Shown here: one piece after another, positions 2,706-22,606 of the stretch
How the letters are laid out: every line of letters begins with the position of its first letter
How positions within the stretch are numbered: the first letter of the stretch is position 1
Source: Spizellomyces punctatus DAOM BR117
Taxonomy: Eukaryota
Length of the DNA stretch: 64,000 nucleotides
Direction: 5' to 3' (one strand)
Assembly (NCBI GenBank): GCA_000182565.2
Contig: KQ257455.1
The notes under the pieces: generated by a model
Database searches by the model: none
Told to the model about the DNA's origin: nothing
The model's input: only the letters and a program-made list of their open reading frames with translations
Position numbers and translations under genes: made by a program

Positions 2706-3461
2706 TATCGTCATGCGGTCAACATTCCTGATACTTCTTGTAAACTAACCGGGCTGAACCACCTAACGATTTGTGCCTTCCGATTGGGACAACTCACATG
2801 CATGAAGCATGAATGTTTTACTTTTTTTTCCGGTTTTGCTCGAAATCTCTGCAGGCAGGTTGTTATTTGACAGCCTATTACTTGGCGAGTCAGGCGAACG
2901 TCCACATTGCGCATGGCTTGACCCCTTTTTTCTTTTTGCTGAGTCGGCCGACAGCATGGTACCATTGGTCATAATGTTTGTTTAATGATAATCATTCTCA
3001 TGTCTAAGGCGTGATGGAACATTGTCATCTGGTGAGGCAGGATGAGGAACGATACCAGAGTGAGCCCACCGTGCGTGCAATGCACTTGAACAAAAGACCT
3101 GAAAAATAATAACACAAAACGCAAATACAGAAGATGCGGAAGTTATATTCCGTGGATGCACTTCTCTATATCCTATATTATGTGTATGCCCCGGTCAAAA
3201 GTCTTTTATTTTCACCACATGTAGCCAGGATTTTTAAACCACTTTGAGATCAAACATGGGAAATTGCCACATATAACTGCCCAATGTGTACACCTACATA
3301 CTTGACTTTTGTTGATTATATATAGCAGAGATATAGGGAAAGAAAGGCAGCGGGCCAGGGTATTTGCGATGTGTGTATGGTGGCATCCTGATTCAACACG
3401 CTCACCGTCGTGTCAGTCCTGCATTTAGTCACGTGAGTACTTGCTGTCAACGAGTGCATCA

Positions 3462-6248: not shown

Positions 6249-6620
6249 GATGACACTAAGCGCCGCTTTCATGGAACTGAGGAATGAGACGCCATTGCTC
6301 TTATCCATTTGGGCCAGATACGTCGTACCAGCCAAGATACTTGAACGTGGCAATACATTTCGAATGTCATTCACAGCATCATAGAACAAAGGATATTGTG
6401 CGCCAAGTAGTTCTACCATGGCTGGTAATCTATTGATGACAAGCGGGGTATTCCGTACCATGCATTCAAGGACCGTATTCACTGCCGTTGTTGCATCAAA
6501 CAAGTTCAAGAACACAATGTTCTGGGTCAACAGCTTGTCATAGTCAGCATCCTGCAGAGTCGGTATGATAACGACACTCTGGTCAATGCCTTCCAAGATA
6601 CCCAAACGTATGTAGATCAC
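6240..6620 (-). pseudogene. 5'-truncated giant-virus/bacterial-type glycosyltransferase-like protein fragment
   Basis: Motif YDKLLTQNIVFLNLFDATTAVNTVLECMVRNTPLVINRLPAMVELLGAQYPLFY, which I recall from NCLDV and cyanobacterial hypothetical proteins; no ATG at the 5' end; intronless. Confidence 0.65.
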
Positions 6621-6705
6621 ACACTAAAAGTTTTTCGGTGAACTTTTGGCGAACTTTTGACTTTTTTGCTTAGTGTTGGTAATGACAATGACCAGTCAAA
6701 ATGCG
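6618..6705 (-). ncRNA. Candidate omegaRNA scaffold / element 3' end (distal)
   Basis: On the minus strand, an 8-bp stem UUUUGACU/AGUCAAAA whose loop contains ACACUAA complementary to terminal UUAGUGU; also an AAAAGUU/AACUUUU hairpin; lies downstream of the Fanzor gene. Confidence 0.45.
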
Positions 6706-7085
6706 TGTAATACAAATAATGGATTTCATGGGGGTTGAGATCGTCTTTCAATGCAGTCAGATTTGATTTCCTTTGTCGCTCAATCGGAATATTTGAAGCA
6801 GGATAATGGAAATGACACATACAAAGGATGAATTGTCAAGTTCTCAGCTCCAGGCGATTTGTGATCTGGAAATGACATTTTTAGTACAACAGAATGGGCC
6901 GAAAGGGTTACTTCGACAAAGGTAAAAAGAACTTTTCAAACGTTTTTAAAAGTTTCTCCAGATGGACCAAATTATAGTACACAGGACAAAAACACTGCAA
7001 CTACGTCTTGCGACAGGAGGCGAAGTTAATGCGCCACCCCTAAGCCACTAAGCCTTTTTTTTAACTAACTAAGCTAAGTAAGTAA

Positions 7086-9120
7086 TCACGGTCTTGTGTA
7101 GATGGGGAGTTCATGATGCTGAACAATATTCAGGGTGTTCTGAAGAATGAGGTGTACAGCGGCTATGTTCCTGAAACCAAAAAATACCAACGATTACAGG
7201 TTGACCGACGAAATCAAAATTTCTTTTCTCCTACCGCTCGTAAAACTTGTCACGACCACCGTGAGCTTCGGTATTTGAACAAGCGCTCACCCTCCACACC
7301 TCTCGACCTTCTTCCACTTCGTGTCGCTTCACCTTTTTATGGCATGTTGGACACACTTGGCTGGAGTTAAATTCGCGCCAGTAAGAAAGCTCAGCCTCAC
7401 CCATCGATCGAGGTGGTTGCGGACGCCCCTTCTGAGGAGTTTTTCGAAACGCCCTTGGGGCTCGTCGCGCTGCCCGGCATGTTGTGGTGGAAATCACCGT
7501 CGCCCCAAATAACGACAAGATCGTTCATTGGAACTCCAGCAGGAAAGAAGCGGCGTAAGAATTCTCCCTCGGCTCTCTTAATACAGATGTGTCGGTCTAG
7601 TCTGAGTCGGCGTACTTTTCTCAGGCCCGTGAACTTCAGTCGCTTCGCCAATGTTCGATAGGTAAAGGCAACAAGTTGAGCATACTCAGCGGCACTGCAA
7701 CGTCGGCTATAGTTTTGAGCATCCTTGTAAATTGACTTGATACCATATCGAGGATCTGCTTGCCATTTCTTACGCCACAACTCCCGTTTCCGCTCTCCTG
7801 TAATCTCCCGCCGATATCTTCTGCTGAAGAGCGCGAAGTGTCCATAGCTACTTCGTTTAGGCTTTTGACAACTCGCTTGTGGCCAGAACTGACCCCTTTC
7901 TTGCTTGCGTCTGCCACGCCACCTTGCATTTCGCTTTATACGTCTTTTCCTTCCTCGCGGTTTCGACTTCCTTTGTACCCAGCGTCTTTGCTTTCGGAAG
8001 CGATGGTGCTGACTACGATTCAGATAATAGGGTTGGTATTGAACTTGTCCATCCACGAGGTGCGAACCGATTTGGTAATAGCCAGCAGCAATGATAGGAT
8101 CTTTGTTCGTATCCACCGAGATGATCACTTTGTTCAGTAGGTTTTCTGGGCGAACTTTTGAAAGCTCTGATAGCGTGGACGGGCGGATTCCAGAAACTTG
8201 ATTGACAGATTCCCATTGTTCATAAGCTTTCCGGCGCGTACGATTCATGGTATTCACCAGCACCCCTGCACAGACACCGTCCGTCAAAATCATGTAGTGG
8301 AAGCTCCGGTCAGTATAGGCCCGCTCTGGATCAGGGACTACCTTTCCCACATCGAAGACGCTGCTCCAGACCTTTCGCCAGTGTTCTTGACCTTTTCCCC
8401 TCGTCCCCACCAGTCCACCAAGGCCCAGACTATCCAGCGTGATCGGTTGCCATGCGTCGCCAAATTCAGGGAGCAGAGGAAAGTCGTCAACGAGGCGACC
8501 ACCTCGGTAGTCCGTCTTTGCGAGATCCTTTTGCTCATCCATGCTCTTCCCCTTCAATAGCTCGCGCCAACTGTCCCTCTCCTGCTCAAAGCGCTTACGA
8601 ATCCGGTAGAGAAGATCAAAGTATTGCCCCCAATGCTCGTAAATGTCCTTTTCTTTGAGCGATATGCCTAGAAGAAAATCTCTTTTCGCCTCCTCAAAAG
8701 CTTCGGTGCTGACGGTTAACATCTTGCGCACGGATGCCTTTTGGACGTAGTGTTCTTTAGCGAATTTGCCCAGCGAAGGCAAGGAAACGTTTTGTTGTCT
8801 AATCGAATGTCTAATATATATCGACATTCCTATTATATATGTATATACATTGATATTTGTATATGTGTGTGCAGATTCTTTGCAATTCTGCCAATTACTG
8901 ACTGCATTTTTCCTACCATACTCACCTTGATCCATAGTGCTGTTGTCGTCGCCGTCATCAGATTCTTTCACTCTCCTCCTCCTCCACAGCCGCGCTCTTG
9001 CGCCATAGTGTGCTGCAGAGAATATATCAACTTTTAATCGGAATAATTCGATTTACCTTTCACTCTGATGGCGTGCAAACTTGCCCCCATATTTTGATAA
9101 TCTTTTCCACCTTTTGAACC
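7086..9120 (-). pseudogene. Fz1: Fanzor1 (eukaryotic TnpB-derived RNA-guided nuclease), intron-containing and frame-disrupted
   Basis: FPLLP..ITLDS, FHYMILTDGVCAGVLV, RuvC-I ISVDTNK (D 8111-8113), LVVIWGD, RuvC-II REFNSSQVCPTC (E 7372-7374), SACSNTEAH; after intron 7234-7171 it reads YERNIAAVHLI...RP-stop (7086-7088). Frame changes at ~7395-7460. Probable further introns at 8925-8830 and near 9015-9055; 5' end uncertain. Confidence 0.88.
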
Positions 9121-9179
9121 TTGATCTATGAACGCAATGGAGCAAAGTTACATCGGAATGACTGTAAAAGCAGCAATGT

Positions 9180-9465
9180 ATTGGAAATGCAAATCATGGA
9201 CAAGGATCTTGCAATTTGAGTGCACCGCAACGAATTTGCAGATGCATACTAGACCTCCCTCATTACCAATAGCAGCAATGGTAAATTCAAGACAACTATT
9301 GCGCGCAAGCTTTACCTATTTTCTTTGTCAACAAACCTTGTCATGCCAGAGCAAAATCGAATAGTTAGCGTGCCTTAGCAGTCTTGTCCTGTCTTTGGTT
9401 TGGTGGATAAAGACAAATGGTGTCCTCCCCACTTGAAATGCACCAACTACTGCGCGCCAGCAATT
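9180..9465. repeat. Degenerate, deleted direct copy of ~11570-12070
   Basis: Shared blocks AACCTTGTCATGCCAGAGCAAAA, ACCAACTACTGCGCGCCAGCAA and TCATTACCAA in the same order. Confidence 0.8.
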
Positions 9466-9904
9466 CGTTTTCCGCGTCAACTTGTTATTATTAAATCTTA
9501 TTGTCTGACTAGTCAACCATACTCAAGAATATTACAAACAAGGCTGTGACGTGCATCATTCTCTAAATGCGCCTTTCTAATCGCTTCAACGGCTAAGCCC
9601 AAACTCGATCGGACGGCGGGAGTAGGTGCTATTTGGTCTTGTTCTGTGTTCGGTAAACACGCCACTTCTGCTGCTATTGTTTGGTCGTGCCCACAAGGTG
9701 CTTCACGTTGCGCTTCTTGTTTCGAAGGTCGAGTTTCGCATCTACGGCTTCATTGACGGAATCTTCACTGAGGGCCACTATCTTGTGCGTTTGTGAAAAA
9801 AATGCATTGAATGTGGCCTTCTCGGCCAGAAGTGTCTACAAGGAACAAATAGTTTCAGTCCTTTCAAAATATGCCAGTTATTCTCACTCAGTTTCTATGT
9901 ATTT

Positions 9905-10485
9905 GCTCTACGCTTGGGTCAAAGCCGGCACCGCGGTGCACAAGATCCCAGGTGTCCGCAGACACCCGAGGTGGGTTTGACCTAACTTGGGACCATCGCA
10001 ATGGACTCCACCTCGTACAGTCGCAACGGATGAGGTGCCCTGCGAGCCACTGCCAAACCATGTATCATTTCACTCACCTGCGAGAAGATTGTAGTCCTGA
10101 GTTGAGCAAAAGTTACTGGGCCTTTGAGATCCGGTTCGCTGCGCTACCGTCTTCAGCGAGGTGGTCCGGTCCACCTCGCTGATACTACCTTTATGAACAA
10201 AAAGGAGTTACCCTGAGTTACGTCAGTCTTGTGCGACTGCACAATTACAACAGATGGCGCCCTACAAGCCCTATTGACTCTGAAAGGCCCATTCATTACC
10301 ACGTTCAGTGGCTCTACGCTTCGGTCAAAGCCGGCATCGCAATGCATAAACACCCAGGTGCCCGCAGCCACGGGAATGACCTAACTTGGGACCATCGCAA
10401 TGGATTCCACTCCTACCCCCGCAGCGATAGGACGTGCCCTGCGAGCACTGACAATCCATGTATCATTTCACTCACCTGCGAGAAG
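9905..10485. repeat. Diverged ~180-bp direct repeat pair (9905-10087 and 10311-10485)
   Basis: GCTCTACGCTT.GGTCAAAGCCGGCA, TGACCTAACTTGGGACCATCGCAATGGA and CCATGTATCATTTCACTCACCTGCGAGAAG occur in both copies. Confidence 0.9.
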
Positions 10486-10521
10486 CAGTCCTCATCACCT
10501 CCGCCGATTCTCGAAGCGCTT

Positions 10522-11195
10522 GAGCAGAACACGGCTGCAAGTGGGACTAACTAAACAGGACCCTAACCCCACACCCTCTNNNNNNNNNNNNNNNNNNNNN
10601 NNNNNNNNNNNNNNNNNNNNNNNNNNNNNNNNNNNNNNNNNNNNNNNNNNNNNNNNNNNNNNNNNNNNNNNNNNNNNNNNNNNNNNNNNNNNNNNNNNNN
10701 NNNNNNNNNNNNNNNNNNNNNNNNNNNNNNNNNNNNNNNNNNNNNNNNNNNNNNNNNNNNNNNNNNNNNNNNNNNNNNNNNNNNNNNNNNNNNNNNNNNN
10801 NNNNNNNNNNNNNNNNNNNNNNNNNNNNNNNNNNNNNNNNNNNNNNNNNNNNNNNNNNNNNNNNNNNNNNNNNNNNNNNNNNNNNNNNNNNNNNNNNNNN
10901 NNNNNNNNNNNNNNNNNNNNNNNNNNNNNNNNNNNNNNNNNNNNNNNNNNNNNNNNNNNNNNNNNNNNNNNNNNNCTAGACCCCAAAGTGGAGCAGAACA
11001 CGGCTGCGAGTGGAACTAACTAAACCGCACCCTAACCCCACACCCTACACCATCTCCCACCCCATCGCCCTCCCCATCACCCTCCCCATCCCCGACCCCG
11101 TCACCCTCCCCATCCCCGACCCCATCACCCTCCCCATCCCCGACCCCATCACCCTCCCCATCCCCTATCCATCACCTCCCTCTCCCCAAGTGGAG
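10522..11195. repeat. C-rich minisatellite / tandem array spanning an assembly gap
   Basis: GAGCAGAACACGGCTGC.AGTGG.ACTAACTAAAC...CCCTAACCCCACACCCT on both sides of the N gap, followed by about three copies of the 24-bp unit CATCACCCTCCCCATCCCCGACCC. Confidence 0.85.
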
Positions 11196-11450
11196 CGTTC
11201 CTCCAGATGTGGAGAGCCCATCTTTTCGCGGGGACACCCAACCTCGATGAGACGATGGGAACGCGATGGGAACGCGAGAAACGGGGCCAGGTGGTGAATT
11301 TATAAGGCGTGGGGTTACACAAACTGATGTCAAGTCCGTGTAACGCGGGTGCAATGTGCAATGTGTGAGCACTCTGATTGGACAGATGTGCGCGTCGCTT
11401 AGTAAGCCTCGTTGTCCGGCCGCGTCGGACAACTGGTACGTGAGCAGTAG

Positions 11451-12070
11451 TTAACTCCCCATGCGGTGCAGAGCTAAAGTAGACCTCATTCTTTGTGAGT
11501 GAGGTGTGCTACCGCATATAGATGCATATAGATGCAACACAAAGACGACTGGACAGCCCCAGATGGCCAGTTTGGGAATGTCATGGACAAAAGACGGATA
11601 GTTAGAGCCATAGAGCATACCATAGACGTTCCATGCTTGTAAACCTCCATCATTACCAAAAGCAATCGTATTCAAGACGAATGGTGTCCTCCAGGCACCA
11701 ACTATCAACCAACCTGCTATCCAGCCAAAGAAGCCAATGCACCAAGCGATCATTCCAATACTTTAAACCAACAACTGGGCAAGCTGAGTTCCATTACCTG
11801 TCGATTCAGTCCTAATTCCCAAATTCAACCGTGAACCGCATAGTCCACGCATCGCATCCTGACGCGTTCCCCATCTGTCACAAAGCTTTATCTTTTCTTT
11901 GCCAACATAACCTTGTCATGCCAGAGCAAAAGCAAAATAGTTGGCGTGCCATAGGATCTTGTCATGTCTTTGGTCTGCTAGCCTAGAAACCCCATCTTTA
12001 CCAAAGCTATTCAACACGAAGGGGCGTCCTCGCCACTTTGAATGGACCAACTACTGCGCGCCAGCAAACG
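11451..12070 (-). pseudogene. Membrane-protein gene fragment of unknown family
   Basis: Hydrophobic Trp/Gly-rich ORF 11451-11753; partial degenerate duplicate at ~9180-9465. Confidence 0.35.
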
Positions 12071-12695
12071 CGTTAAACTCTATTATAAAAACTGATGACT
12101 GATCCACAATATGGGGGTTTTCCCACAGACTCATGTCATCACGTGAATGCGCAATGCAAAATAGCATGCTAATTTACCAAAAATGCGCGTTACATCCACC
12201 CCAACATCTTATTTCTCCGCTTCCGTGGATATAAATCCAAGTGTTCCAAAGAATCAAACAGCAAATAACAAGCATCCACGTAAGCAATTGAATTTACAAA
12301 GAAGAGTCAGCCATTTCCCGTTCGTGGGAACGCGTTGCCCCCAACTTTGTTTCAATCGGAGCTCACCGGAGGAGAGAAATACGGCATAGGAAGGTGGATG
12401 AGGTGGACGGGAGAGGTGGAAAAGTTACTTAAGGGCTGATGGCGACTTGCCCACCTTCTACGCATATCAAGCCTCATCATATATTCAGCCATTTTCAACA
12501 TTTCCCCTGCATTGCTTTCTTCTTCTTGTATTATCTGCACGTGCATTTTGTAGATTATAAAGTTTTAGAAATTTTGGTATTTCCCGCGGATAATCATTTG
12601 GCGTGGATATCGCTCCCAAGGAAATCGCTTTTAAAAAAGGAACTTGCTTTGAACTTCCTTTTGTCGTTCCGCTGTCCACTGACTTTCGAATTGTC

Positions 12696-15600
12696 ATGGC
12701 GTCTGCGACTCCCGCGCTGACCGCAACTACGGCGAACGGAGGCCACCTGGAGCTAGATGTGACAAAATTAAAAGAAGATGGACACGTCGTCCTGACGGAG
12801 GACGAACCCACAACGACGAGCAAAAAGGCAGGAAAAGATAAAGAAAAGAAGCCGGAAACACCTCGAGTCTCCTACCTTCAGCTTTATCGTTATGCCAGTC
12901 CGTTTGATATTTTGTTGATAATTGCCGGCACGCTCGCCGCGGCAGCCCACGGCGTCGGAATGCCCCTCATGACCATCATTTTTGGTGAGTCTTTTGTATA
13001 CCCCCTTGCCAACCCTTACAATGCCATACTGACGGCTTTCCTGTATATTAGCTGATATCCTCGAATACTATTATAGTTACGATCCAAACAATCCTGTTTC
13101 CGCTGATCTATTGAGGGATGCCGCCAAAGATACTGCCATATGGTTTGTCATCCTTGCGGCGTCGCTCTTTGCTCTTGCCTACGCTCAAATGTGCTTCTGG
13201 ATGTGGGCAGGTGAAAATCAAGCAAAGGTGGGTAGTCTCTCAATGGCTCTTGGTGAAGTGCGCTGGCAGCTTAGGCACCTTGCTCCCATTCGCAGCGCAT
13301 CCGCGAACTCTACTTTAAATCCATCCTTCGTCAAAATGTCGGCTGGTTCGACGCAACCAGTACTGGAGAGCTGACAACCCGGATGACTGCCGATACAGGA
13401 ATGATCCAAGAAGGCATCAGCGAAAAAGTCGGAATGATCATTCAGTTTGTGACAACATTCATTGCCGGTTTCATTATTGCCTTTATCAAAGGATGGAGAT
13501 TGGCTCTAGTCTTGACGGCATGCTTTCCCTTGTTGGCCGGTGCTGCCGCTCTCATGTCCATTATGGTTGCCGCCAGCTCGGACAAGGGAAACGATGCGTA
13601 TGCATCTGCTGGTGCGTCACAATCGTGTAACACTACAACGATGTAGTCCACTTTCTGATGATATTTTACAGGTGGCATTGCTCAGCAAGTCTTGTCCGGC
13701 ATGAGAACCGTCGTCGCCTTTGGTGGTGAGCACCGTGCGACAAAGAGATACGCTGCACTGCTGAAAAGTGCCGAGAAGGATGCCATCAAAAAGTCTATTT
13801 ACACGGCTCTTGGTGTTGGTATGATTAACTTTCTCATCTTCGCTGTATACTCTATGGCTTTCTGGTGAGTGCTCTACTTGGATTAATGTCTTCCCTGCCT
13901 TTGATTTGACCTAGCTGTCATCCAGGTACGGTGGACGTGAGATTCGGGCTGGCCGTATGAATGGAAAAGAAGTGGTCAACTGTTTCTTTGCGCTCATTAT
14001 TGGAGCCTTCACACTCGGTCAGGGCATGCCTCACTTTAGCGCTCTCGGAAACGCGCAAGGTGCGGCTTACAAAGTGTTTGGCACCATTGATCGCGTTTCC
14101 CCCATCGATGCGAGCAACCCCGGCGGCGAAAAGCCAAGCGAGGTGAAAGGTGATATCGAGTTCAAGGATATTTCATTCCATTACCCGACTCGTGAGGATG
14201 TCCCGATTTTATCCAAGTTTAACCTCAAAGTCCAAGCCGGTAAAACCGTTGCCCTCGTGGGATCATCCGGATCCGGAAAGGTAAGAAATGAAATATATCA
14301 TTTTGGAAAGTCATGCAGAGTTTGCTGAGTTTGCATTTATATCAGTCGACCATTGTAAAACTCGTGGAACGCTTTTACAATCCAGTCTCGGGAACAGTGA
14401 CTCTAGATGGCCACGACCTCAAGGACTTGAATGTGAAGTGGCTCCGACAGCAAATAGGAATTGTCTCGCAGGAGCCAACCCTGTTTGACACGACCATTCG
14501 TCGGAATCTTGTGTTCGGATTGAAGGAAGACCCAGATACGATTCCAAAGGAGAAACTTGACCAAATGGTGGAAGACGCTTGCAAAGTCGCCAACGCCTGG
14601 GGATTTATTCAGACTCTTCCTCAAGGGTTGGACACCTCTGTCGGTGAAGCCGGATCCATGTTATCTGGCGGGCAAAAGCAGCGTATTGCCATTGCACGTG
14701 CTGTCATGCGGGACCCTCGTATCTTGCTTCTTGATGAAGCAACTTCAGCTCTTGACACCGAGTCTGAGAGACTTGTCCAAGCGGCGTTGGAGTCTGCATC
14801 TCAAGGACGAACAACCATTGTGATTGCACATCGCTTGTCCACGATCAAAAATGCTGATTTGATCGTGGTGATGAATAAGGGAGCGATTGTCGAACAAGGC
14901 ACTCATGACGCTCTTGTTGCGGCCCGGGGAACGTACTATGAACTGGTTGAGGCGCAGCGTCTCAGAGGAGGCACGAACCATGAAGGTAATGGCCAAGAGA
15001 AGAATACGGTTGCCATCGATGTTGCCGATCTCGAAAATGCTGTCGAACCTGTCGCTACTGCAGAGCCTGTCAAACGTATCGGTGACGCCGGCGTCACGCT
15101 TGACATTGGAGAAAAGCCGCCAGCCCCTGAGCGCGTAGAGTCTGCACTTGAACGGCGCCAGAGTGTTGTGTCCCTTCGCAAGCGCAAGGAATTGGAAGAG
15201 GAGTTGGCCAAGAAGGAGAAGGAAGCAATGCTGAAGCGAAACGTGGACAAAAAGAGAATTCTGATGATGAACAAACCAGAATTCCCGATCATGTTCTTAG
15301 GGTAAGCTACAGCATTATCATCGCATTCGTTGTAGACGGATACCTTACCAAAGCCACCTAGTGTCATGTGCTCGTTGGTAAACGGCGCGGTTATGCCCGT
15401 TTTTGCCCTAATCTTTTCCGAACTCATCGCTGTGTTCAATCGTACGGGTGATGAGTTAACTCGGGAAATTAACAAATGGGCTCTTGGATTTTTCCTGTTG
15501 GCCATTGCCGCCTTTATTAGTCACGTCATTCAAATCGGTCTCTTGCGAATTGCCGGTGATAAACTTACCACTCGCCTCCGTCATGAGTCGTTCCGTGCCT

Positions 15601-17272
15601 TGATGAGACAGGAGATTGCATTTTTCGATGATGAGAAGAACTCTACGGGAGCGTTGACCGCCAAGCTCGCCGAGGATGCCAACCTGGTACAAGGTCTCAC
15701 TGGACAAACTTTTGCACAGATCCTGCAATTGATCTCCAACTTTACTGTTGGACTTGGAATTGCCTTTTCAAACAGTTGGCAGCTCACACTCGTCGTTTTG
15801 GCCTGTGTGCCCTTGGTCGGGATCGGTGGTTATCTTCAGCTCAAGACCTTGACTGGTTTCGGTGAAAAGTCCAGGGAGGCTTACAAGGATGCCAACCAAA
15901 CTGCATCCGAAGCCATTGAAAGCATTCGTACCGTGCAGACGCTGACTAAGGAGGAAAAGTTCGCGTCTACCTACGCCGAGCAGATCAAGGTTCCCCATCG
16001 TATGGTAGTCAAAGGAGCGTTCGTGAGTTCCGTTGGCTTTGCCAGTGCTGAGAGTGTTATCTTTTTGACATATGCCCGTATGTATTGTGGTCTTTATCTG
16101 TGTGGAACAAGGTCGTATGTGCTGACAATCTCTGGTTTGTTAGTTGCCTTCTGGTACGGTTCTGAATTGATGCTCAAAAACACATACGATGCGAAGCAAG
16201 TCATGACAACCATGTTTTCCATCATTTTTGCTGCCATGGCTGCTGGGCAAGGTAATACTAGATGATACGCGGCCACTTTCGTTTCCATATGCCGGCTCTA
16301 ATATTCTGGCTGGTTCAATTGTCTAGTCACAAACTTTGCGCCTGATGCAGCCAAAGCCAAGCTCGCTGCCCTTGGCATCCTCGATATTCTCGACCGTACG
16401 TCTCGCATCGACGCAACCAGTACGGAAGGCGAGCGTCCTGCAAAGCCGCAGGGCCGTCCATCAACTATTGACACGCACTTTGCTTACCCTACTCGTCCCG
16501 ACATCTCTATTTTGCGGGGATTGAACATTGCGGCCGAGGTTGGAACGACCGTAGCATTGGTCGGCCACTCTGGTTGCGGTAAGAGTACCGTTCTTGGATT
16601 ATTGGAGCGCTGGTACGATGTTACAGATGGACGTGCGGAGGTGGACCAGCTCGATGTCCGCATGTGGAACTTAAAGTACCTCAGGGAACAGATGGCGCTT
16701 GTCGGACAGGTAAGCAACTTTTGTATATGGCTGCGATCTGTGAAGGGGAGCTGATGTGGCATTGACCTTGCTAGGAACCCATCCTTTTCGATGTGTCCAT
16801 CCGTGAAAACATCGCCTACGGCGCACCTGAAGGCGAGGCAACCGACGAGCAAATCGAAGCCGCCGCCCGCGCCGCCAACATTCACGATTTCGTCATTGGT
16901 CTCCCCAAAGGATACGACACAATGGTCGGCGAAAAAGGAGGCCAACTCAGTGGTGGCCAAAAGCAACGCATTGCCATTGCTCGCGCGCTCATCCGAAACC
17001 CGAAACTCCTCCTTCTAGACGAGGCGACCAGTGCCCTAGACTCTGAATCCGAAAAAGTGGTCCAAGACGCCCTCGACCGCGCTGCCAAAGGTCGTACAAC
17101 TGTAGTGATTGCACATCGTCTTTCTACCATCCAGAATGCGGATAGGATTTACGTCGTCCGCGGTGGACAGGTGGCAGAGATGGGCACCCATGCGGAATTG
17201 GTTGATCTGGGTGGGGCGTATGCCGAGTTGGTAAATCAGCAGATGCTCCACAAGGAGGAAACAACGTCATAA
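12696..17272 (+). CDS. MDR1: Full-length ABCB-type multidrug transporter (P-glycoprotein), multi-exon
   Basis: Two TMDs and two NBDs: GSSGSGKS and GHSGCGKS Walker [15 protein letters not shown] signature twice, [11 protein letters not shown] twice; GT-AG introns. Confidence 0.96.
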
Positions 17273-20097: not shown

Positions 20098-21762
20098 CTA
20101 AATAGCATTACCCAAACCAGACCGCTTGCTTCTCACCATAACCTCCACAGGATGTACCAAGCCTTGGCTTCCTTCACTGCCTAATGCTTGCCCCTCAGTC
20201 CACCCCATCGCCTTCAACATCCGATGCCCAATATTCCCTTCACCGATCGGCTTACTTCCCTCTCCAACCACAGACCCCAATTTTGGTCGCGCCTTTTGAT
20301 CGGGTGCCCCTGGTGGCTTCTTCTTTTTGGTCCCGCTACCAGGTGACCTGGTATTCCCCTTTAATCTTCCTCCCTCTGCTTCGACAACTTGTTTGACAAC
20401 CGATTTCCAATGTTGCGGTACATGTGATCGTTGTGTACGGATTAGAACGGAGACTTTGGCTTTTCCTTTTCCGCGGGTCTTGGGTAGGAGATGATACTCC
20501 CTTGCCATGCTGTAGACGAGTCGTCGGACTGCGCCTGGCATGGGTGGGAGAGTCACGCAAGGTTTGGAGGGTTCGTTTTGGGTGAATGTGTGCATGGTTG
20601 AGTTGACGGTGGAAAGGAATGTAGTCACATCTTTAGTGATTTTTGTGCCTGAGCGTGAGAGGGCAGCGTTGAGGTTTTGGCCGGCGTTGGCTCTTTCGCG
20701 GGCTTTTTGGTGTTTGTTGCGGGTGAACTCGGCCTGCTCGCGTCGCTTTTGTTTACGTGCTTGGGATTTGGAACCAAAGTCTGCTTTGAGAATTTGCTGA
20801 AACTTGCGCTCGGAAGGATCTTTATTCCGGGAAGTATTCTCATCCCATGCGGACTTTCTGCCTTCGAAATCTTGTTTGAGATACTCTTCGTCATCGTCAC
20901 TATCGTCATTCTCACTTCCCAGCCCCAGCCGTGCAAATGATGGTATCTCGTCACTAGAATCATCACTAGTATCCACTTCCTCATCATCATGTCCCATCAT
21001 CAATGCTTCATATAGCCCAACTTCTGCTTCTTCTTCGTCCGATGAGGCCGATAAAGAAGTCAGGTGGGTTAATGCACTGGAGAGATCTCCAACGGAAGAG
21101 TTTTGGATATAATCCATCATGATAGCCATTTCTTCCGGGTCTACATCTTGTTCTGGGGTTTCATCTGATGAAAGGCCATCTTTGTCCTCCTCTCGGTCTT
21201 CCACATCCTGTTCGACAAGTAGCCTGTTTATGCCACCATCATTCCGACATTTTTTTCTTTTACTTGATTGGCCGTGTCTCTGCTTCCTTCGCCGTTCTTT
21301 TTGGGTTGGGGTGAGGGAGATAAAGTCTTCTGCAGAGGATGTTGATGTGGGTGTCGTTCCTTGTGTGTTGGGTAGGCGTTCCGGTGTCAGTGGCGTGTGA
21401 AGAAGAGCGGAGTCACCTCGGCGGTCCATAAAGAAGAGTTGGGAGGAAAATTGACGAGAAGAGCTTTCAGTGCGGCCGGATACTGACGACGTCGTTGTTC
21501 CAAGACTGTCGGCCTTTGGTGTTGCGTCCAAGACTGCGCCGTCACCTTGCTGATCTATAAAGAAGAGCTGGGTCAATCGTTCACAGGTGGACATTGTGCT
21601 ATGTGACGGTGTTCGTCTTGCGGTGTAGTTTGCGGAATCACCGTCAATAAGCGATATCAGTATCCTCGTCAACACAGACCTTTGCATGCAGTAGCCAGTG
21701 GAGTAGCCACACTTCAAGGCACGTGTTTGTGCTGACATAAGCGACCTGCTATGCTTTACCAC
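20098..21762 (-). CDS. SQS1: R3H plus G-patch domain protein (SQS1-like); 5' end uncertain
   Basis: LPPMPGAVRRLVYSMAREYHL (R3H-like), NIGHRMLKAMGWTEGQALG...RSKRSGLG (G-patch), acidic middle region. Confidence 0.8.
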   Translation of the reverse strand: MVKHSRSLMSAQTRALKCGYSTGYCMQRSVLTRILISLIDGDSANYTARRTPSHSTMSTCERLTQLFFIDQQGDGAVLDATPKADSLGTTTSSVSGRTESSSRQFSSQLFFMDRRGDSALLHTPLTPERLPNTQGTTPTSTSSAEDFISLTPTQKERRRKQRHGQSSKRKKCRNDGGINRLLVEQDVEDREEDKDGLSSDETPEQDVDPEEMAIMMDYIQNSSVGDLSSALTHLTSLSASSDEEEAEVGLYEALMMGHDDEEVDTSDDSSDEIPSFARLGLGSENDDSDDDEEYLKQDFEGRKSAWDENTSRNKDPSERKFQQILKADFGSKSQARKQKRREQAEFTRNKHQKARERANAGQNLNAALSRSGTKITKDVTTFLSTVNSTMHTFTQNEPSKPCVTLPPMPGAVRRLVYSMAREYHLLPKTRGKGKAKVSVLIRTQRSHVPQHWKSVVKQVVEAEGGRLKGNTRSPGSGTKKKKPPGAPDQKARPKLGSVVGEGSKPIGEGNIGHRMLKAMGWTEGQALGSEGSQGLVHPVEVMVRSKRSGLGNAI

Positions 21763-22606
21763 ATACTGTACCTTGTATCGTTGTCAAATGCACAGCGATT
21801 CCATTAGTATGCATATCCCAATGTCCAACTTGCAATGTATCAATTGCAGTACATATGGGGCAAGACCATCATGCAGTCATCTGAATCTTGAATGACCTGC
21901 TGCTGGCACTAGAGAGATAATGCATGCCCGGAGATGTGTCCTCTCCGGTGTTGATACATATTGAATGCCCTAACGATGGCCACAATGCCTCATCCTTACC
22001 ATATTCACTGGATGTGTCTGGCATATCTAGCGTACTCGGCTGCGATGTTGCTTGTCGTATGCAAACTGACTGTCAGGTGTGGAAATCCAATGCATTGGAT
22101 GGGCATTCAAATGAGTAGCCCGTGATCGGACGAGACCGGAAGACGGTAAAATTGCATAGCCCCTCCCGATGTCACCCGAGAACCGTCACGCGCTATGATG
22201 ACACATCTTTGCGCATTATCTTGCGCCGTGGCTGCTTTTTGGGATTCCGTTCCTTTTGTTATAAAGGCTCCAGCAAGCGGTTCTCGTCGTTTCCCGACAC
22301 GGTATCCTTGAACTTTCACGATTTATTTGCGGCAATTGCATTGGCAAGAGTTTAATTTTAGTAACAAGGTGAGTACATTTATTTGTATTATCGTTTGGTA
22401 CCTGCTTTATCAACGGTCTGTGTCAGTTCCGAAGGGTTTGGGGAACCTATATAAAGGGCTGGTTTAACCTTTGACATTGCCAACACAGATCACCTTGTCT
22501 GTTGCCAAACCAATTTTTCTTGTTTGATTTTACTCCAGCTCTTTGCCGACTCCCTCTCCGACCAATCGCACCCTCCAACGAAACCTAGACCAAAGAAAAA
22601 CATAAT

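What the first reader, a model, noticed from the sequence alone, without database searches (positions are those of the whole stretch)
7086..9120. Divergent intron-containing Fanzor1 with Asn at the RuvC-III catalytic position
Seen: Fanzor1 motif order (TDG, RuvC-I VDTNK, WGD, RuvC-II E plus CxxC, then CxxxxxH). The C-terminus appears only after splicing a 64-nt GT-AG intron (7234-7171), giving YER-N-IAAVHLI where TnpB/Fanzor normally have R-D. It also has a long Arg/Lys-rich insertion after RuvC-I. It is clearly diverged from SpuFz1 as I recall it, and I found no Spu-1 TIRs around it. Inference: a distinct Fanzor lineage, possibly nuclease-attenuated and acting as an RNA-guided DNA binder (by analogy to TldR). 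The D-to-N change could also be simple decay or tolerated.
Basis: partly seen in the sequence, partly recalled or inferred. Interest (0 to 1): 0.9.

Follow-up and report, generated by a model that had tools for sequence, protein, structure and literature searches.

The report
Decayed Fanzor1 relic with Asn triad
This is a broken, single-copy leftover of a divergent chytrid Fanzor1 (RNA-guided nuclease) gene whose unusual Asn in the active site is a variant already shown to be active in other Fanzors, so it is not evidence for a nuclease-dead DNA binder.

Summary
A family profile matches solved Fanzor1 structures (SpuFz1 E 4.2e-12, PpFz1 8.1e-12). A model of the closest intact relative has Fanzor1 structures as all 7 of its 7 PDB matches at E<=0.001.

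The 64-nt GT-AG intron (7234-7171) is ancestral. A 45%-identical metagenome homologue (L001) has an intron in the same phase of the same Arg codon, and both genes resume with Asn. That Asn aligns with SpuFz1 D606.

The "nuclease-attenuated binder" reading fails for two reasons:
- Xu et al. 2024 (PMC11423790) report that GtFz1 naturally has Asn at this position and cleaves DNA, and that SpuFz1 D606N cleaves better than wild type.
- The window copy (Spizellomyces punctatus gene model SPPG_03742) is broken. At least one frameshift, probably two, lies between WGDGD and the RuvC-II Glu, and DNA reads confirm it. About 200 N-terminal residues found in relatives are missing.

No TIRs, paralogue or guide-RNA signal were found. 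RNA reads show mainly a spliced, polyadenylated antisense transcript.

Verdict: a decaying member of a known kind; low interest.

The parts
7448..8797 (-). Main homologous block in frame -1: REC/WED-like region, TDG strand, RuvC-I, basic insertion and WGDGD, ending at ..GSATSPKG
   Evidence: Family HMM without self, positions 74-514, E 1.6e-137. tblastn of P0003 gives 45% identity over 430 aa, 8701-7457.
8111..8113 (-). RuvC-I Asp codon (VDTNK). The Asn two residues later corresponds to SpuFz1 N385.
   Evidence: Profile alignment to SpuFz1 ..VIDPNKRDIL. Mg2+ ligands D383, N385, E541, D606 from PMC10432273.
7397..7399 (-). TGA that ends frame -1 before RuvC-II
   Evidence: DNA reads and contigs show no difference here.
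7385..7457 (-). Frame-break zone. The family motif ..FEKLLRRGVRN.. survives only in the third frame, so two 1-nt shifts are inferred (frame -1, then the third frame, then frame -2).
   Evidence: The third-frame piece 7493-7332 matches HMM positions 505-532, which overlap and cover the gap (515-531) between the two strong hits. E 0.13-0.14, third best of 263 six-frame pieces. One shift is certain, the second is inferred.
7235..7374 (-). RuvC-II Glu (7374-7372), CPTC (7353-7342), second knuckle C..H, ..KFYER; end of exon 1 at 7235
   Evidence: HMM positions 532-579, E 1.2e-14. Pfam Cas12f1-like_TNB E 0.0016, below the curated cut-off.
7171..7234 (-). Ancestral 64-nt GT-AG intron, phase 2 inside the Arg codon that precedes the RuvC-III residue
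   Evidence: L001 has a 71-nt intron (2981-3051) at the same codon and phase. Five further relatives (P0004, P0007, P0008, P0009, P0010) end at or read through right after [FYWV]-E-R; P0003 is the protein of L001. No splice reads reached the listing threshold in run X18.
7086..7170 (-). Exon 2: Asn (7169-7167) at the RuvC-III position, C-terminal helix, stop 7088-7086
   Evidence: PpFz1 ..WNRDQAAVLNF.. against window ..YERNIAAVHLI.. aligns without a gap.
6982..7357 (-). Only stretch with sense-strand RNA (depth about 5-10), with the intron apparently retained
   Evidence: table 2. Strand assigned from the poly(A) loose ends of the same run.
7215..8835 (+). Antisense, spliced, polyadenylated RNA. 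Introns 7555-7624 and 8137-8226 are GT..AG; 8477-8558 is non-canonical. Poly(A) site at 8835. A minor upstream exon ending near 7078 is spliced to about 7135.
   Evidence: joints, poly(A) loose end in 10 reads, depth up to 116. Splice-site letters checked.

Best explanation
The locus is a decaying, apparently single-copy relic of a divergent Fanzor1 (eukaryotic TnpB-like RNA-guided endonuclease) subfamily found in chytrid fungi and soil metagenomes. Intact members, such as the L001 gene, have RuvC-I Asp, the Fanzor-type RuvC-II Glu six residues before a CxxC zinc knuckle, a conserved phase-2 intron, and Asn instead of Asp at the third RuvC position. That Asp-Glu-Asn triad has been shown experimentally to be active in Fanzor1. 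Intact members are therefore most likely working nucleases (inferred). The S. punctatus copy has lost about 200 N-terminal residues and its reading frame before RuvC-II, has no transposon ends, and is now transcribed mainly as an antisense spliced poly(A) RNA. It most likely makes no functional Fanzor (inferred).
For: Family membership: profile A1 against PDB gives SpuFz1 4.2e-12 and PpFz1 8.1e-12, with TDG, RuvC-I, GD, Glu+CxxC, the second knuckle and the R-D position aligned. Foldseek of the P0003 model gives 7 of 7 hits at E<=0.001 as Fanzor1 (SpuFz, PpFz, GtFz), followed by Cas12 types. Atlas neighbours carry PF07282 and DUF8286.

Asn is ancestral: same intron position and Asn in L001.

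Asn is compatible with cleavage: PMC11423790.

Decay of this copy:
- Stop at 7399-7397 and a frame change.
- No indels in 6603 DNA reads or in the X1 and X2 contigs.
- The N-terminal HMM finds nothing in 6500-12500. An upstream minus-strand RNA ends with poly(A) at 9464/9468, leaving only about 410 nt.
- No paralogue in the window.
- X2 contig depth is equal in the body and the flank (2.2 and 2.0).
- No TIRs, no Rfam hit, no conserved or unusually stable 3' RNA (z 0.23).
- The annotators could only model 243 aa.
- Antisense RNA depth reaches 116, against sense depth of 10 or less, and sense RNA is seen only in the last 375 nt.
Against: The 450-codon homologous block in frame -1 has no internal stop, so the damage is recent or the truncated product is kept by selection. 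The whole genome was not available, so other copies cannot be excluded. X19 and X1 show 8-30x more depth over the body than over the flanks. I attribute this to ChIP enrichment and cDNA, but collapsed repeats could also cause it. The RNA library is 3'-biased, so absence of sense reads upstream of 7357 is weak evidence. Exon 2 could be read in only 2 subfamily members. The P0003 model is of low confidence (pLDDT 59.9, pTM 0.44).
Confidence: 0.72

Rival explanations
1. One reading: a functional, nuclease-attenuated Fanzor that acts as an RNA-guided DNA binder or repressor (TldR-like) because Asp became Asn at RuvC-III.
For: Asn replaces the residue that aligns with SpuFz1 D606 and is conserved in a distant homologue. 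The locus sits among host genes without TIRs. My four full-text searches on inactive or domesticated Fanzors surfaced no described natural nuclease-dead Fanzor among the listed papers and the passages I read.
Against: GtFz1 has the same Asn and cleaves DNA, and SpuFz1 D606N is more active than wild type (PMC11423790). RuvC-I Asp and RuvC-II Glu are retained in 8 of 8 subfamily sequences. This copy is frameshifted and N-terminally truncated. No guide-RNA signal was found.
Confidence: 0.04
2. The gene still encodes a protein. Either an unannotated short intron bridges the frame break, or the frame -1 product alone (REC/WED plus RuvC-I, no RuvC-II/III) is a domesticated truncated protein. Candidate introns read are 7450-7390 (61 nt, GTTTCG..TGAG, keeps the Glu) and 7400-7361 (40 nt, GTGAGG..CCAG, deletes the Glu).
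For: Both candidates have length 3n+1 and remove the TGA (sequence). Frame -1 stays open for 551 codons. A 243-aa model is annotated.
Against: The 61-nt candidate has poor splice sites compared with the four introns seen here (GTA[AG]G.. 5' sites). The 40-nt candidate is shorter than any intron observed here (56-90 nt). One in three GT..AG pairs has length 3n+1 by chance. Sense-strand RNA depth is 0 across 7358-7451. The family motif KLLRRG lies in the third frame, as expected for plain frameshifts.
Confidence: 0.12
3. The present function of the locus is its antisense spliced poly(A) RNA (7215-8835, plus strand), either a lncRNA or a silencer of the relic. The Fanzor frame is just its template.
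For: Three canonical plus-strand GT..AG junctions appear in X1 contigs. One junction has 6 RNA reads, a poly(A) tail at 8835 has 10 reads, and depth is up to 116 against 10 or less for the sense strand.
Against: The spliced RNA has no convincing ORF: the longest is 233 codons stop-to-stop, lying opposite the Fanzor frame. Abundance is not function. No conservation test was possible.
Confidence: 0.1

Closest known systems
GtFz1 (Guillardia theta Fanzor1; PDB 9cer)
   Same: Fanzor1 fold (Foldseek hit E 2e-4). Asn instead of Asp as the third RuvC residue, and active in vitro (PMC11423790).
   Different: No detectable sequence match with the family profiles. Cryptophyte versus chytrid, so the Asn is probably independent (inferred). 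The window copy is broken.
SpuFz1 (S. punctatus Fanzor1; PDB 8gkh, 9ceu-9cez)
   Same: Same organism. Best sequence-profile and fold match. D-x-N at RuvC-I, and Glu six residues before CxxC.
   Different: Invisible to a single-sequence search. SpuFz1 has Asp606 and W-N-R-D, where this gene has Y-E-R-N. SpuFz1 is multi-copy, about 82% identical between copies, with 30-nt IRs (PMC10432273). Here there is one copy, no IRs, an intron at RuvC-III and a C..H second knuckle.
PpFz1 (Parasitella parasitica Fanzor1; PDB 9cf0-9cf3)
   Same: Profile E 8.1e-12. The C-terminal helix ..NRDQAAVLNF.. aligns without a gap to ..ERNIAAVHLI... Both have an insertion in RuvC.
   Different: PpFz1 has Asp. Its FRI insertion binds a cyclophilin (PMC11423790), whereas the insertion here is a Lys/Arg-rich helix of unknown role.
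TldR (TnpB-like nuclease-dead repressors)
   Same: TnpB-derived, and located in a non-transposon context.
   Different: Per the TldR preprint passage, TldRs were identified by loss of the conserved RuvC active-site residues. Here Asp and Glu are kept and Asn is an active state. No adjacent guide RNA was found.
Giant-virus 'transposase family' clusters with DUF8286 (PF26935) and Cas12f1-like_TNB (PF07282)
   Same: Nearest ESM-Atlas clusters to P0003 by features (0.98) and by structure (TM 0.67/0.76 over 578 residues).
   Different: No relative found in IMG/VR by pattern plus tblastn. The Atlas rows are leads without alignments.

Membership tests
Fanzor1 (eukaryotic TnpB-like RNA-guided endonuclease) | Sequence or fold homology to characterised Fanzor1 across WED/REC, RuvC and TNB | tested here: met
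   A1 profile: SpuFz1 4.2e-12, PpFz1 8.1e-12. The subfamily-only profile A3 still finds SpuFz1 at 0.0029. Foldseek gives 7 of 7 hits at E<=0.001 as Fanzor1 (model pLDDT 59.9).
Fanzor1 (eukaryotic TnpB-like RNA-guided endonuclease) | RuvC-I Asp | tested here: met
   VDTNK, codon 8113-8111, aligned with SpuFz1 D383. The column is invariant in A3.
Fanzor1 (eukaryotic TnpB-like RNA-guided endonuclease) | [quoted passage not shown] | tested here: met
   E-FNSSQV-CPTC, but in a different reading frame from RuvC-I in this copy.
Fanzor1 (eukaryotic TnpB-like RNA-guided endonuclease) | Third RuvC residue Asp, or Asn as in GtFz1 | tested here: met
   Asn 7169-7167 after splicing, and the same in L001. 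Asn is an active state per PMC11423790.
Fanzor1 (eukaryotic TnpB-like RNA-guided endonuclease) | TNB zinc finger (CxxC ... CxxC) | tested here: inconclusive
   The first knuckle CPTC is present. The second is C-x5-H rather than C-x-x-C. Pfam PF07282 scores E 0.0016, below the cut-off for the window piece. 3 of 14 family rows match it, best E 5.3e-07.
Fanzor1 (eukaryotic TnpB-like RNA-guided endonuclease) | omegaRNA from the 3' end of the ORF and downstream | tested here: inconclusive
   Sense RNA exists only over 6982-7357, which a 3'-biased library also explains. No Rfam hit, no conservation with L001, fold z 0.23.
Fanzor1 (eukaryotic TnpB-like RNA-guided endonuclease) | Intact ORF able to give a full-length protein | tested here: not met
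   Stop at 7399-7397 and a frame change. About 200 N-terminal residues are absent. Reads confirm the DNA. The window copy is a relic of the family, not a working member.
Fanzor1 (eukaryotic TnpB-like RNA-guided endonuclease) | Residence in a transposon (TIRs or a transposase nearby) | tested here: not met
   No credible inverted repeats around the gene in the window or in L001. Judged by reading the ORF translations only, the neighbours look like host genes. Some published Fanzors also lack IRs (PMC10432273), so this feature is not strictly defining.
TldR-like nuclease-dead RNA-guided binder | Loss of the RuvC catalytic capacity | tested here: not met
   Asp and Glu are retained in 8 of 8 subfamily sequences. 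Asn at position three supports cleavage in Fanzor1. Activity itself is not testable here.
TldR-like nuclease-dead RNA-guided binder | Adjacent guide RNA and a target promoter | tested here: inconclusive
   No structured or conserved RNA found. No target search was possible without a guide.

The most novel reading that the evidence does not exclude
The chytrid subfamily is a second, independent natural Asp-Glu-Asn Fanzor1 clade. The canonical W-N-R-D motif has become [FYWV]-E-R-N, an acid/amide swap two residues apart on one strand, split by a conserved phase-2 intron. This swap may rewire metal coordination rather than merely tolerate Asn. In S. punctatus its last copy survives as a sense/antisense RNA pair, or as a truncated REC/WED plus RuvC-I protein with a host function.
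Probability: 0.15. Interest if true: 0.5.

Novelty: new member of a known kind. Interest (0 to 1): 0.25.

Why it matters
The feature that earned the high first-stage score, Asn at RuvC-III, is already explained by published structure-function work, so the locus does not open the question of natural nuclease-dead Fanzors.

Three things remain of modest value:
- S. punctatus, the source of SpuFz1, also holds the remains of a second, very divergent Fanzor1 lineage that single-sequence searches miss.
- That lineage, with intact members in soil metagenomes and other chytrids, offers natural Asp-Glu-Asn enzymes with an E-R-N motif. They could be compared with the engineered SpuFz1 D606N.
- An intron sits exactly at the catalytic codon, so gene predictors truncate or read through it. 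7 of 7 database proteins of the subfamily that reach this point do so, which hides the third catalytic residue from automated surveys.

Tried and rejected
- Whole-genome paralogue search: no genome is held.
- Paralogues inside the window: none.
- Single-sequence PDB search with P0001: only chance hits at E>1.
- Pfam on P0001: nothing. On P0002: only sub-threshold zinc-ribbon and TNB hits.
- N-terminal exons upstream: the N-terminal HMM gives no hit at E<2.7 in 6500-12500. A 'QWLAGHLIR' match at 10064-9891 (E 6.9) was rejected as chance inside a repeat.
- GRD in ..HGGRDKFYER as the real catalytic Asp: rejected. It is not conserved, being present only in the window and P0006.
- omegaRNA: no Rfam family, no tRNA, no DNA conservation with the L001 3' region, no unusual folding energy.
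- TIRs: none credible.
- Giant-virus relatives in IMG/VR: the first try with A1 could not run. The retry with A3 gave 92 pattern matches and 0 relatives.
- More subfamily DNA: the single metagenome scan returned only L001, and the look-up of encoding contigs is closed. Exon 2 of P0004 and P0006-P0010 therefore could not be read.
- RNA holders: 'no RNA holder listed' by the index. The raw RNA run X18 was laid instead.
- Collapsed multi-copy repeat as the cause of the depth excess in X19 and X1: considered, not favoured. X2 depth is equal in body and flank, the X19 profile is bell-shaped, and X1 boundaries coincide with the antisense RNA's ends. It is not excluded.
- Literature: six searches. 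The listed papers and the passages I read describe no natural nuclease-dead Fanzor, and SPPG_03742 was not found. Supplementary tables of PMC10432273, which list the S. punctatus Fz loci, could not be seen and may list this locus.
Full report
**What is in the sequence.**
On the minus strand a stop-to-stop frame runs 9052-7400 (551 codons, P0001). It contains ILTDGV, VIISVDTNK, a Lys/Arg-rich stretch (RFRKQRRWVQRKSKPRGRKRRIKRNARWRGRRKQ) and VVIWGDGDFHHNMPGSATSPKG. It ends at TGA 7399-7397.

A different frame (7524-7234, P0002) contains REFNSSQVCPTCHKK...SACSNTEAHGGRDKFYER.

Removing 7234-7171 (64 nt, GTAGGA...TTTCAG; read) joins CG|G to AAC. This gives ...FYER-NIAAVHLILQNTLNIVQHHELPIYTRP and the stop at 7088-7086.

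**Is it a Fanzor?**
- P0001 alone finds nothing relevant in Pfam or in the PDB sequences.
- An exhaustive phmmer scan of 1.84 billion representatives gives only 13 hits at E<=0.001. The word-indexed searches give 2 and 4 hits.
- Named members come from S. punctatus itself (P0005 = SPPG_03742, a 243-aa model of this locus), Powellomyces hirtus, Rhizophlyctis rosea and Hyaloraphidium curvatum. The rest are metagenome or Logan proteins.
- A profile of the 14-row alignment A1 hits SpuFz1 (8gkh, E 4.2e-12) and Parasitella PpFz1 (9cf0, E 8.1e-12). These are the only hits below E 0.4. The printed alignments pair TDG, RuvC-I (VIDPNK), GD, DEYKTSSVCPRC, the second knuckle, and the profile's ..feR-y with SpuFz1 ..WNR-D.
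- The chain numbering minus the MBP tag (394 residues) reproduces D383, N385 and D606, the Mg2+ ligands named in PMC10432273 (passage read).
- The subfamily-only profile A3 still finds SpuFz1 at E 0.0029.
- An AlphaFold2 model of P0003 with A1 is of low confidence (pLDDT 59.9, pTM 0.44). Even so, all 7 Foldseek hits at E<=0.001 are Fanzor1 structures (SpuFz, PpFz, GtFz), followed by Cas12 types.
- ESM-Atlas neighbours are giant-virus clusters carrying DUF8286 and Cas12f1-like_TNB (leads only).

Homology to Fanzor1 is established.

**The intron and the Asn.**
- The metagenome contig L001 encodes P0003 (45% identical to the window over 430 aa).
- Its DNA reads ..ATC GTC GAA AG|GTACGT..(71 nt)..TTTGCAG|A AAC ATC TCG... 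The intron is in the same phase of the same Arg codon, and exon 2 begins with Asn: NISAVVHILEGSLSIIENGCLPKYLAPK...
- The two exon-2 peptides align at score 53, reached by 0 of 5000 shuffles.
- 7 of 7 database proteins of the subfamily that reach this point (P0003, P0004, P0006, P0007, P0008, P0009, P0010) stop at, or read through into unrelated residues right after, [FYWV]-E-R. This is the signature of the same unrecognised intron.
- The distant, uninterrupted relative P0013 has ..TWNRDVNAARSF.., and PpFz1 has ..LWNRDQAAVLNF...
- Window ..FYERNIAAVHLI.. aligns to PpFz1 without a gap, so the Asn sits at the D606 position.
- The Asn is therefore ancestral to a lineage at least 45% diverged, not copy-specific decay.
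- A side observation: the subfamily has E-R-N where canonical members have N-R-D, that is, the acid and the amide appear swapped two residues apart.

**Why the 'nuclease-attenuated binder' inference fails.**
- Xu et al. [quoted passage not shown] GtFz1 cleaves DNA. SpuFz1 D606N cleaves better than wild type. GtFz1 N658D is weaker.
- Asn at this position is thus a known active Fanzor1 state.
- In line with this, RuvC-I Asp and RuvC-II Glu are kept in 8 of 8 subfamily sequences, the window included. Per the TldR preprint, TldRs were picked out by loss of the conserved RuvC active-site residues.

**State of the window copy.**
1. *Frame break.* A family HMM built without the window row matches three pieces:
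   - frame -1 at HMM positions 74-514 (E 1.6e-137);
   - frame -2 at positions 532-579 (E 1.2e-14);
   - the third frame at positions 505-532, which overlap and cover the gap (515-531) between the two strong hits (..RFEKLLRRGVRNHLDRWVRLSF.., E 0.13-0.14, third best of 263 pieces).

   Relatives read SPKD..(I/L)RRG....LFLPGCE(F/Y)xSSQxC here. One frameshift is certain. A second is inferred from this weak but collinear match.

2. *The break is in the DNA.* 6603 ChIP-DNA reads (X19, depth about 150 at the site) show no substitutions or indels at 10% or more. Contigs of X1 (7215-7555) and X2 (7026-7443) are identical. X1 may be the source data, and all runs may be one strain.

3. *N-terminus.* Full-length relatives have about 200-220 more N-terminal residues (P0003, P0004, P0006, P0012, P0013). 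Neither tblastn nor an N-terminal HMM finds them in 6500-12500. A minus-strand RNA ends with poly(A) at 9464/9468, leaving about 410 nt upstream of 9052. Beyond that lie tandem repeats and an N gap.

4. *Context.* There are no flanking inverted repeats, no paralogue in the window and no transposase. Neighbours look like host genes, for example an ABC transporter at 12.6-17.3 kb, judged by reading the ORFs only.

5. *Copy number.* X2 contigs have equal depth over the body (2.2) and the flank (2.0).

**Transcription (one RNA run, 3'-biased).**
- Poly(A) loose ends show that first mates carry the RNA's sense.
- The dominant RNA is on the plus strand, antisense to the Fanzor frame. A poly(A) tail at 8835 is seen in 10 reads, and depth is 61-116 over 8580-8861.
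- A junction 8476>8559 is seen in 6 reads and in an X1 contig.
- X1 contigs add junctions 7554>7625 and 8136>8227, plus a contig end joining about 7078 to about 7135. On the plus strand these are GTAAGA..CAG, GTAGGT..AAG and GTAAGT..CAG. The 8477-8558 junction is non-canonical (AG..AT).
- The spliced antisense RNA has no convincing ORF.
- Sense-strand RNA is seen only over 6982-7357 (depth 4.5-10). In this sample the intron looks retained.
- Because the library is 3'-biased, the lack of sense reads further upstream is weak evidence.

**Guide RNA.**
There is no Rfam family, no conservation between the window and L001 downstream of the stop, and the 411-nt sense stretch folds no better than shuffles (z 0.23). 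The sense RNA over 6982-7357 is where an omegaRNA would lie, but an mRNA 3' end explains it equally well.

**Alternatives kept open.**
- Two GT..AG spans of length 3n+1 could bridge the frames: 7450-7390 (61 nt, poor sites, keeps the Glu) and 7400-7361 (40 nt, good sites, very short, deletes the Glu).
- No RNA covers them, and the conserved KLLRRG in the third frame argues for plain frameshifts.
- The long open frame -1 means the damage is recent or a truncated product is retained.
- The 8-fold ChIP depth peak and the 10-30-fold X1 depth excess over the body are attributed to enrichment and cDNA, respectively. A collapsed repeat is not excluded without the whole genome.

**Comparison and novelty.**
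- The locus works like nothing at present, most likely. Its family works, by inference, like GtFz1-type Asp-Glu-Asn Fanzor1 nucleases.
- It is a relic member of a divergent chytrid Fanzor1 subfamily.
- Literature searches found no mention of SPPG_03742, and the listed papers and passages I read describe no natural nuclease-dead Fanzor. They did find the published Asn triad.
- Supplementary data of PMC10432273 could not be opened and may list this locus.

Interest 0.25.

Noticed in passing
window 7215-8835 (+), introns 7555-7624, 8137-8226, 8477-8558; minor exon ending ~7078 spliced to ~7135: An abundant spliced, polyadenylated antisense RNA lies over the Fanzor relic. One of its junctions (8476>8559, AG..AT, 2-nt microhomology) is non-canonical yet is seen in 6 RNA reads and in a contig of another run.
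   Followed up: partly
window 7400-8100: ChIP-seq run X19 has a smooth depth peak of about 100 per strand, against about 12 in the flanks. The antibody is unknown to me. It could be a chromatin mark over the sense/antisense unit or a collapsed repeat.
   Followed up: no
window 7235-7240 and 7167-7169; family rows in A1: Covariation at the RuvC-III motif. Canonical members have N-R-D (P0013, SpuFz1, PpFz1; P0014 shows N-R before its intron). The subfamily has E-R (8 of 8) followed by Asn (2 of 2 readable). The acid and the amide are swapped two residues apart.
   Followed up: partly
window 9334-9463 vs 11909-12067; 9905-10485; 11024-11182; N run 10580-10975: A repeat-rich zone lies upstream of the relic. 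It contains two copies (89-93% identical) of short segments 2.6 kb apart, a tandem repeat of about 400 nt flanking the assembly gap, and a 12-nt C-rich minisatellite. A minus-strand RNA with poly(A) at 9464/9468 ends inside one repeat copy.
   Followed up: partly
window 12594-17272 (+): Multi-exon ORFs with two ABC signatures ([14 protein letters not shown]) and transmembrane stretches: an MDR-type ABC transporter, judged by reading the translations. Not run through Pfam.
   Followed up: no
window 20098-21783 (-): A 561-codon open frame rich in Ser, Asp and Glu, with a C-terminal Gly-rich motif (..GWTEGQALGSEGSQGLVHPVEV..) that looks like a G-patch. Recalled resemblance, not tested.
   Followed up: no
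database proteins P0003, P0004, P0006-P0010: All 7 gene-model proteins of the subfamily that reach the RuvC-III codon are truncated at, or read through, the intron there. Automated catalytic-residue surveys would therefore score them as lacking the third residue.
   Followed up: partly
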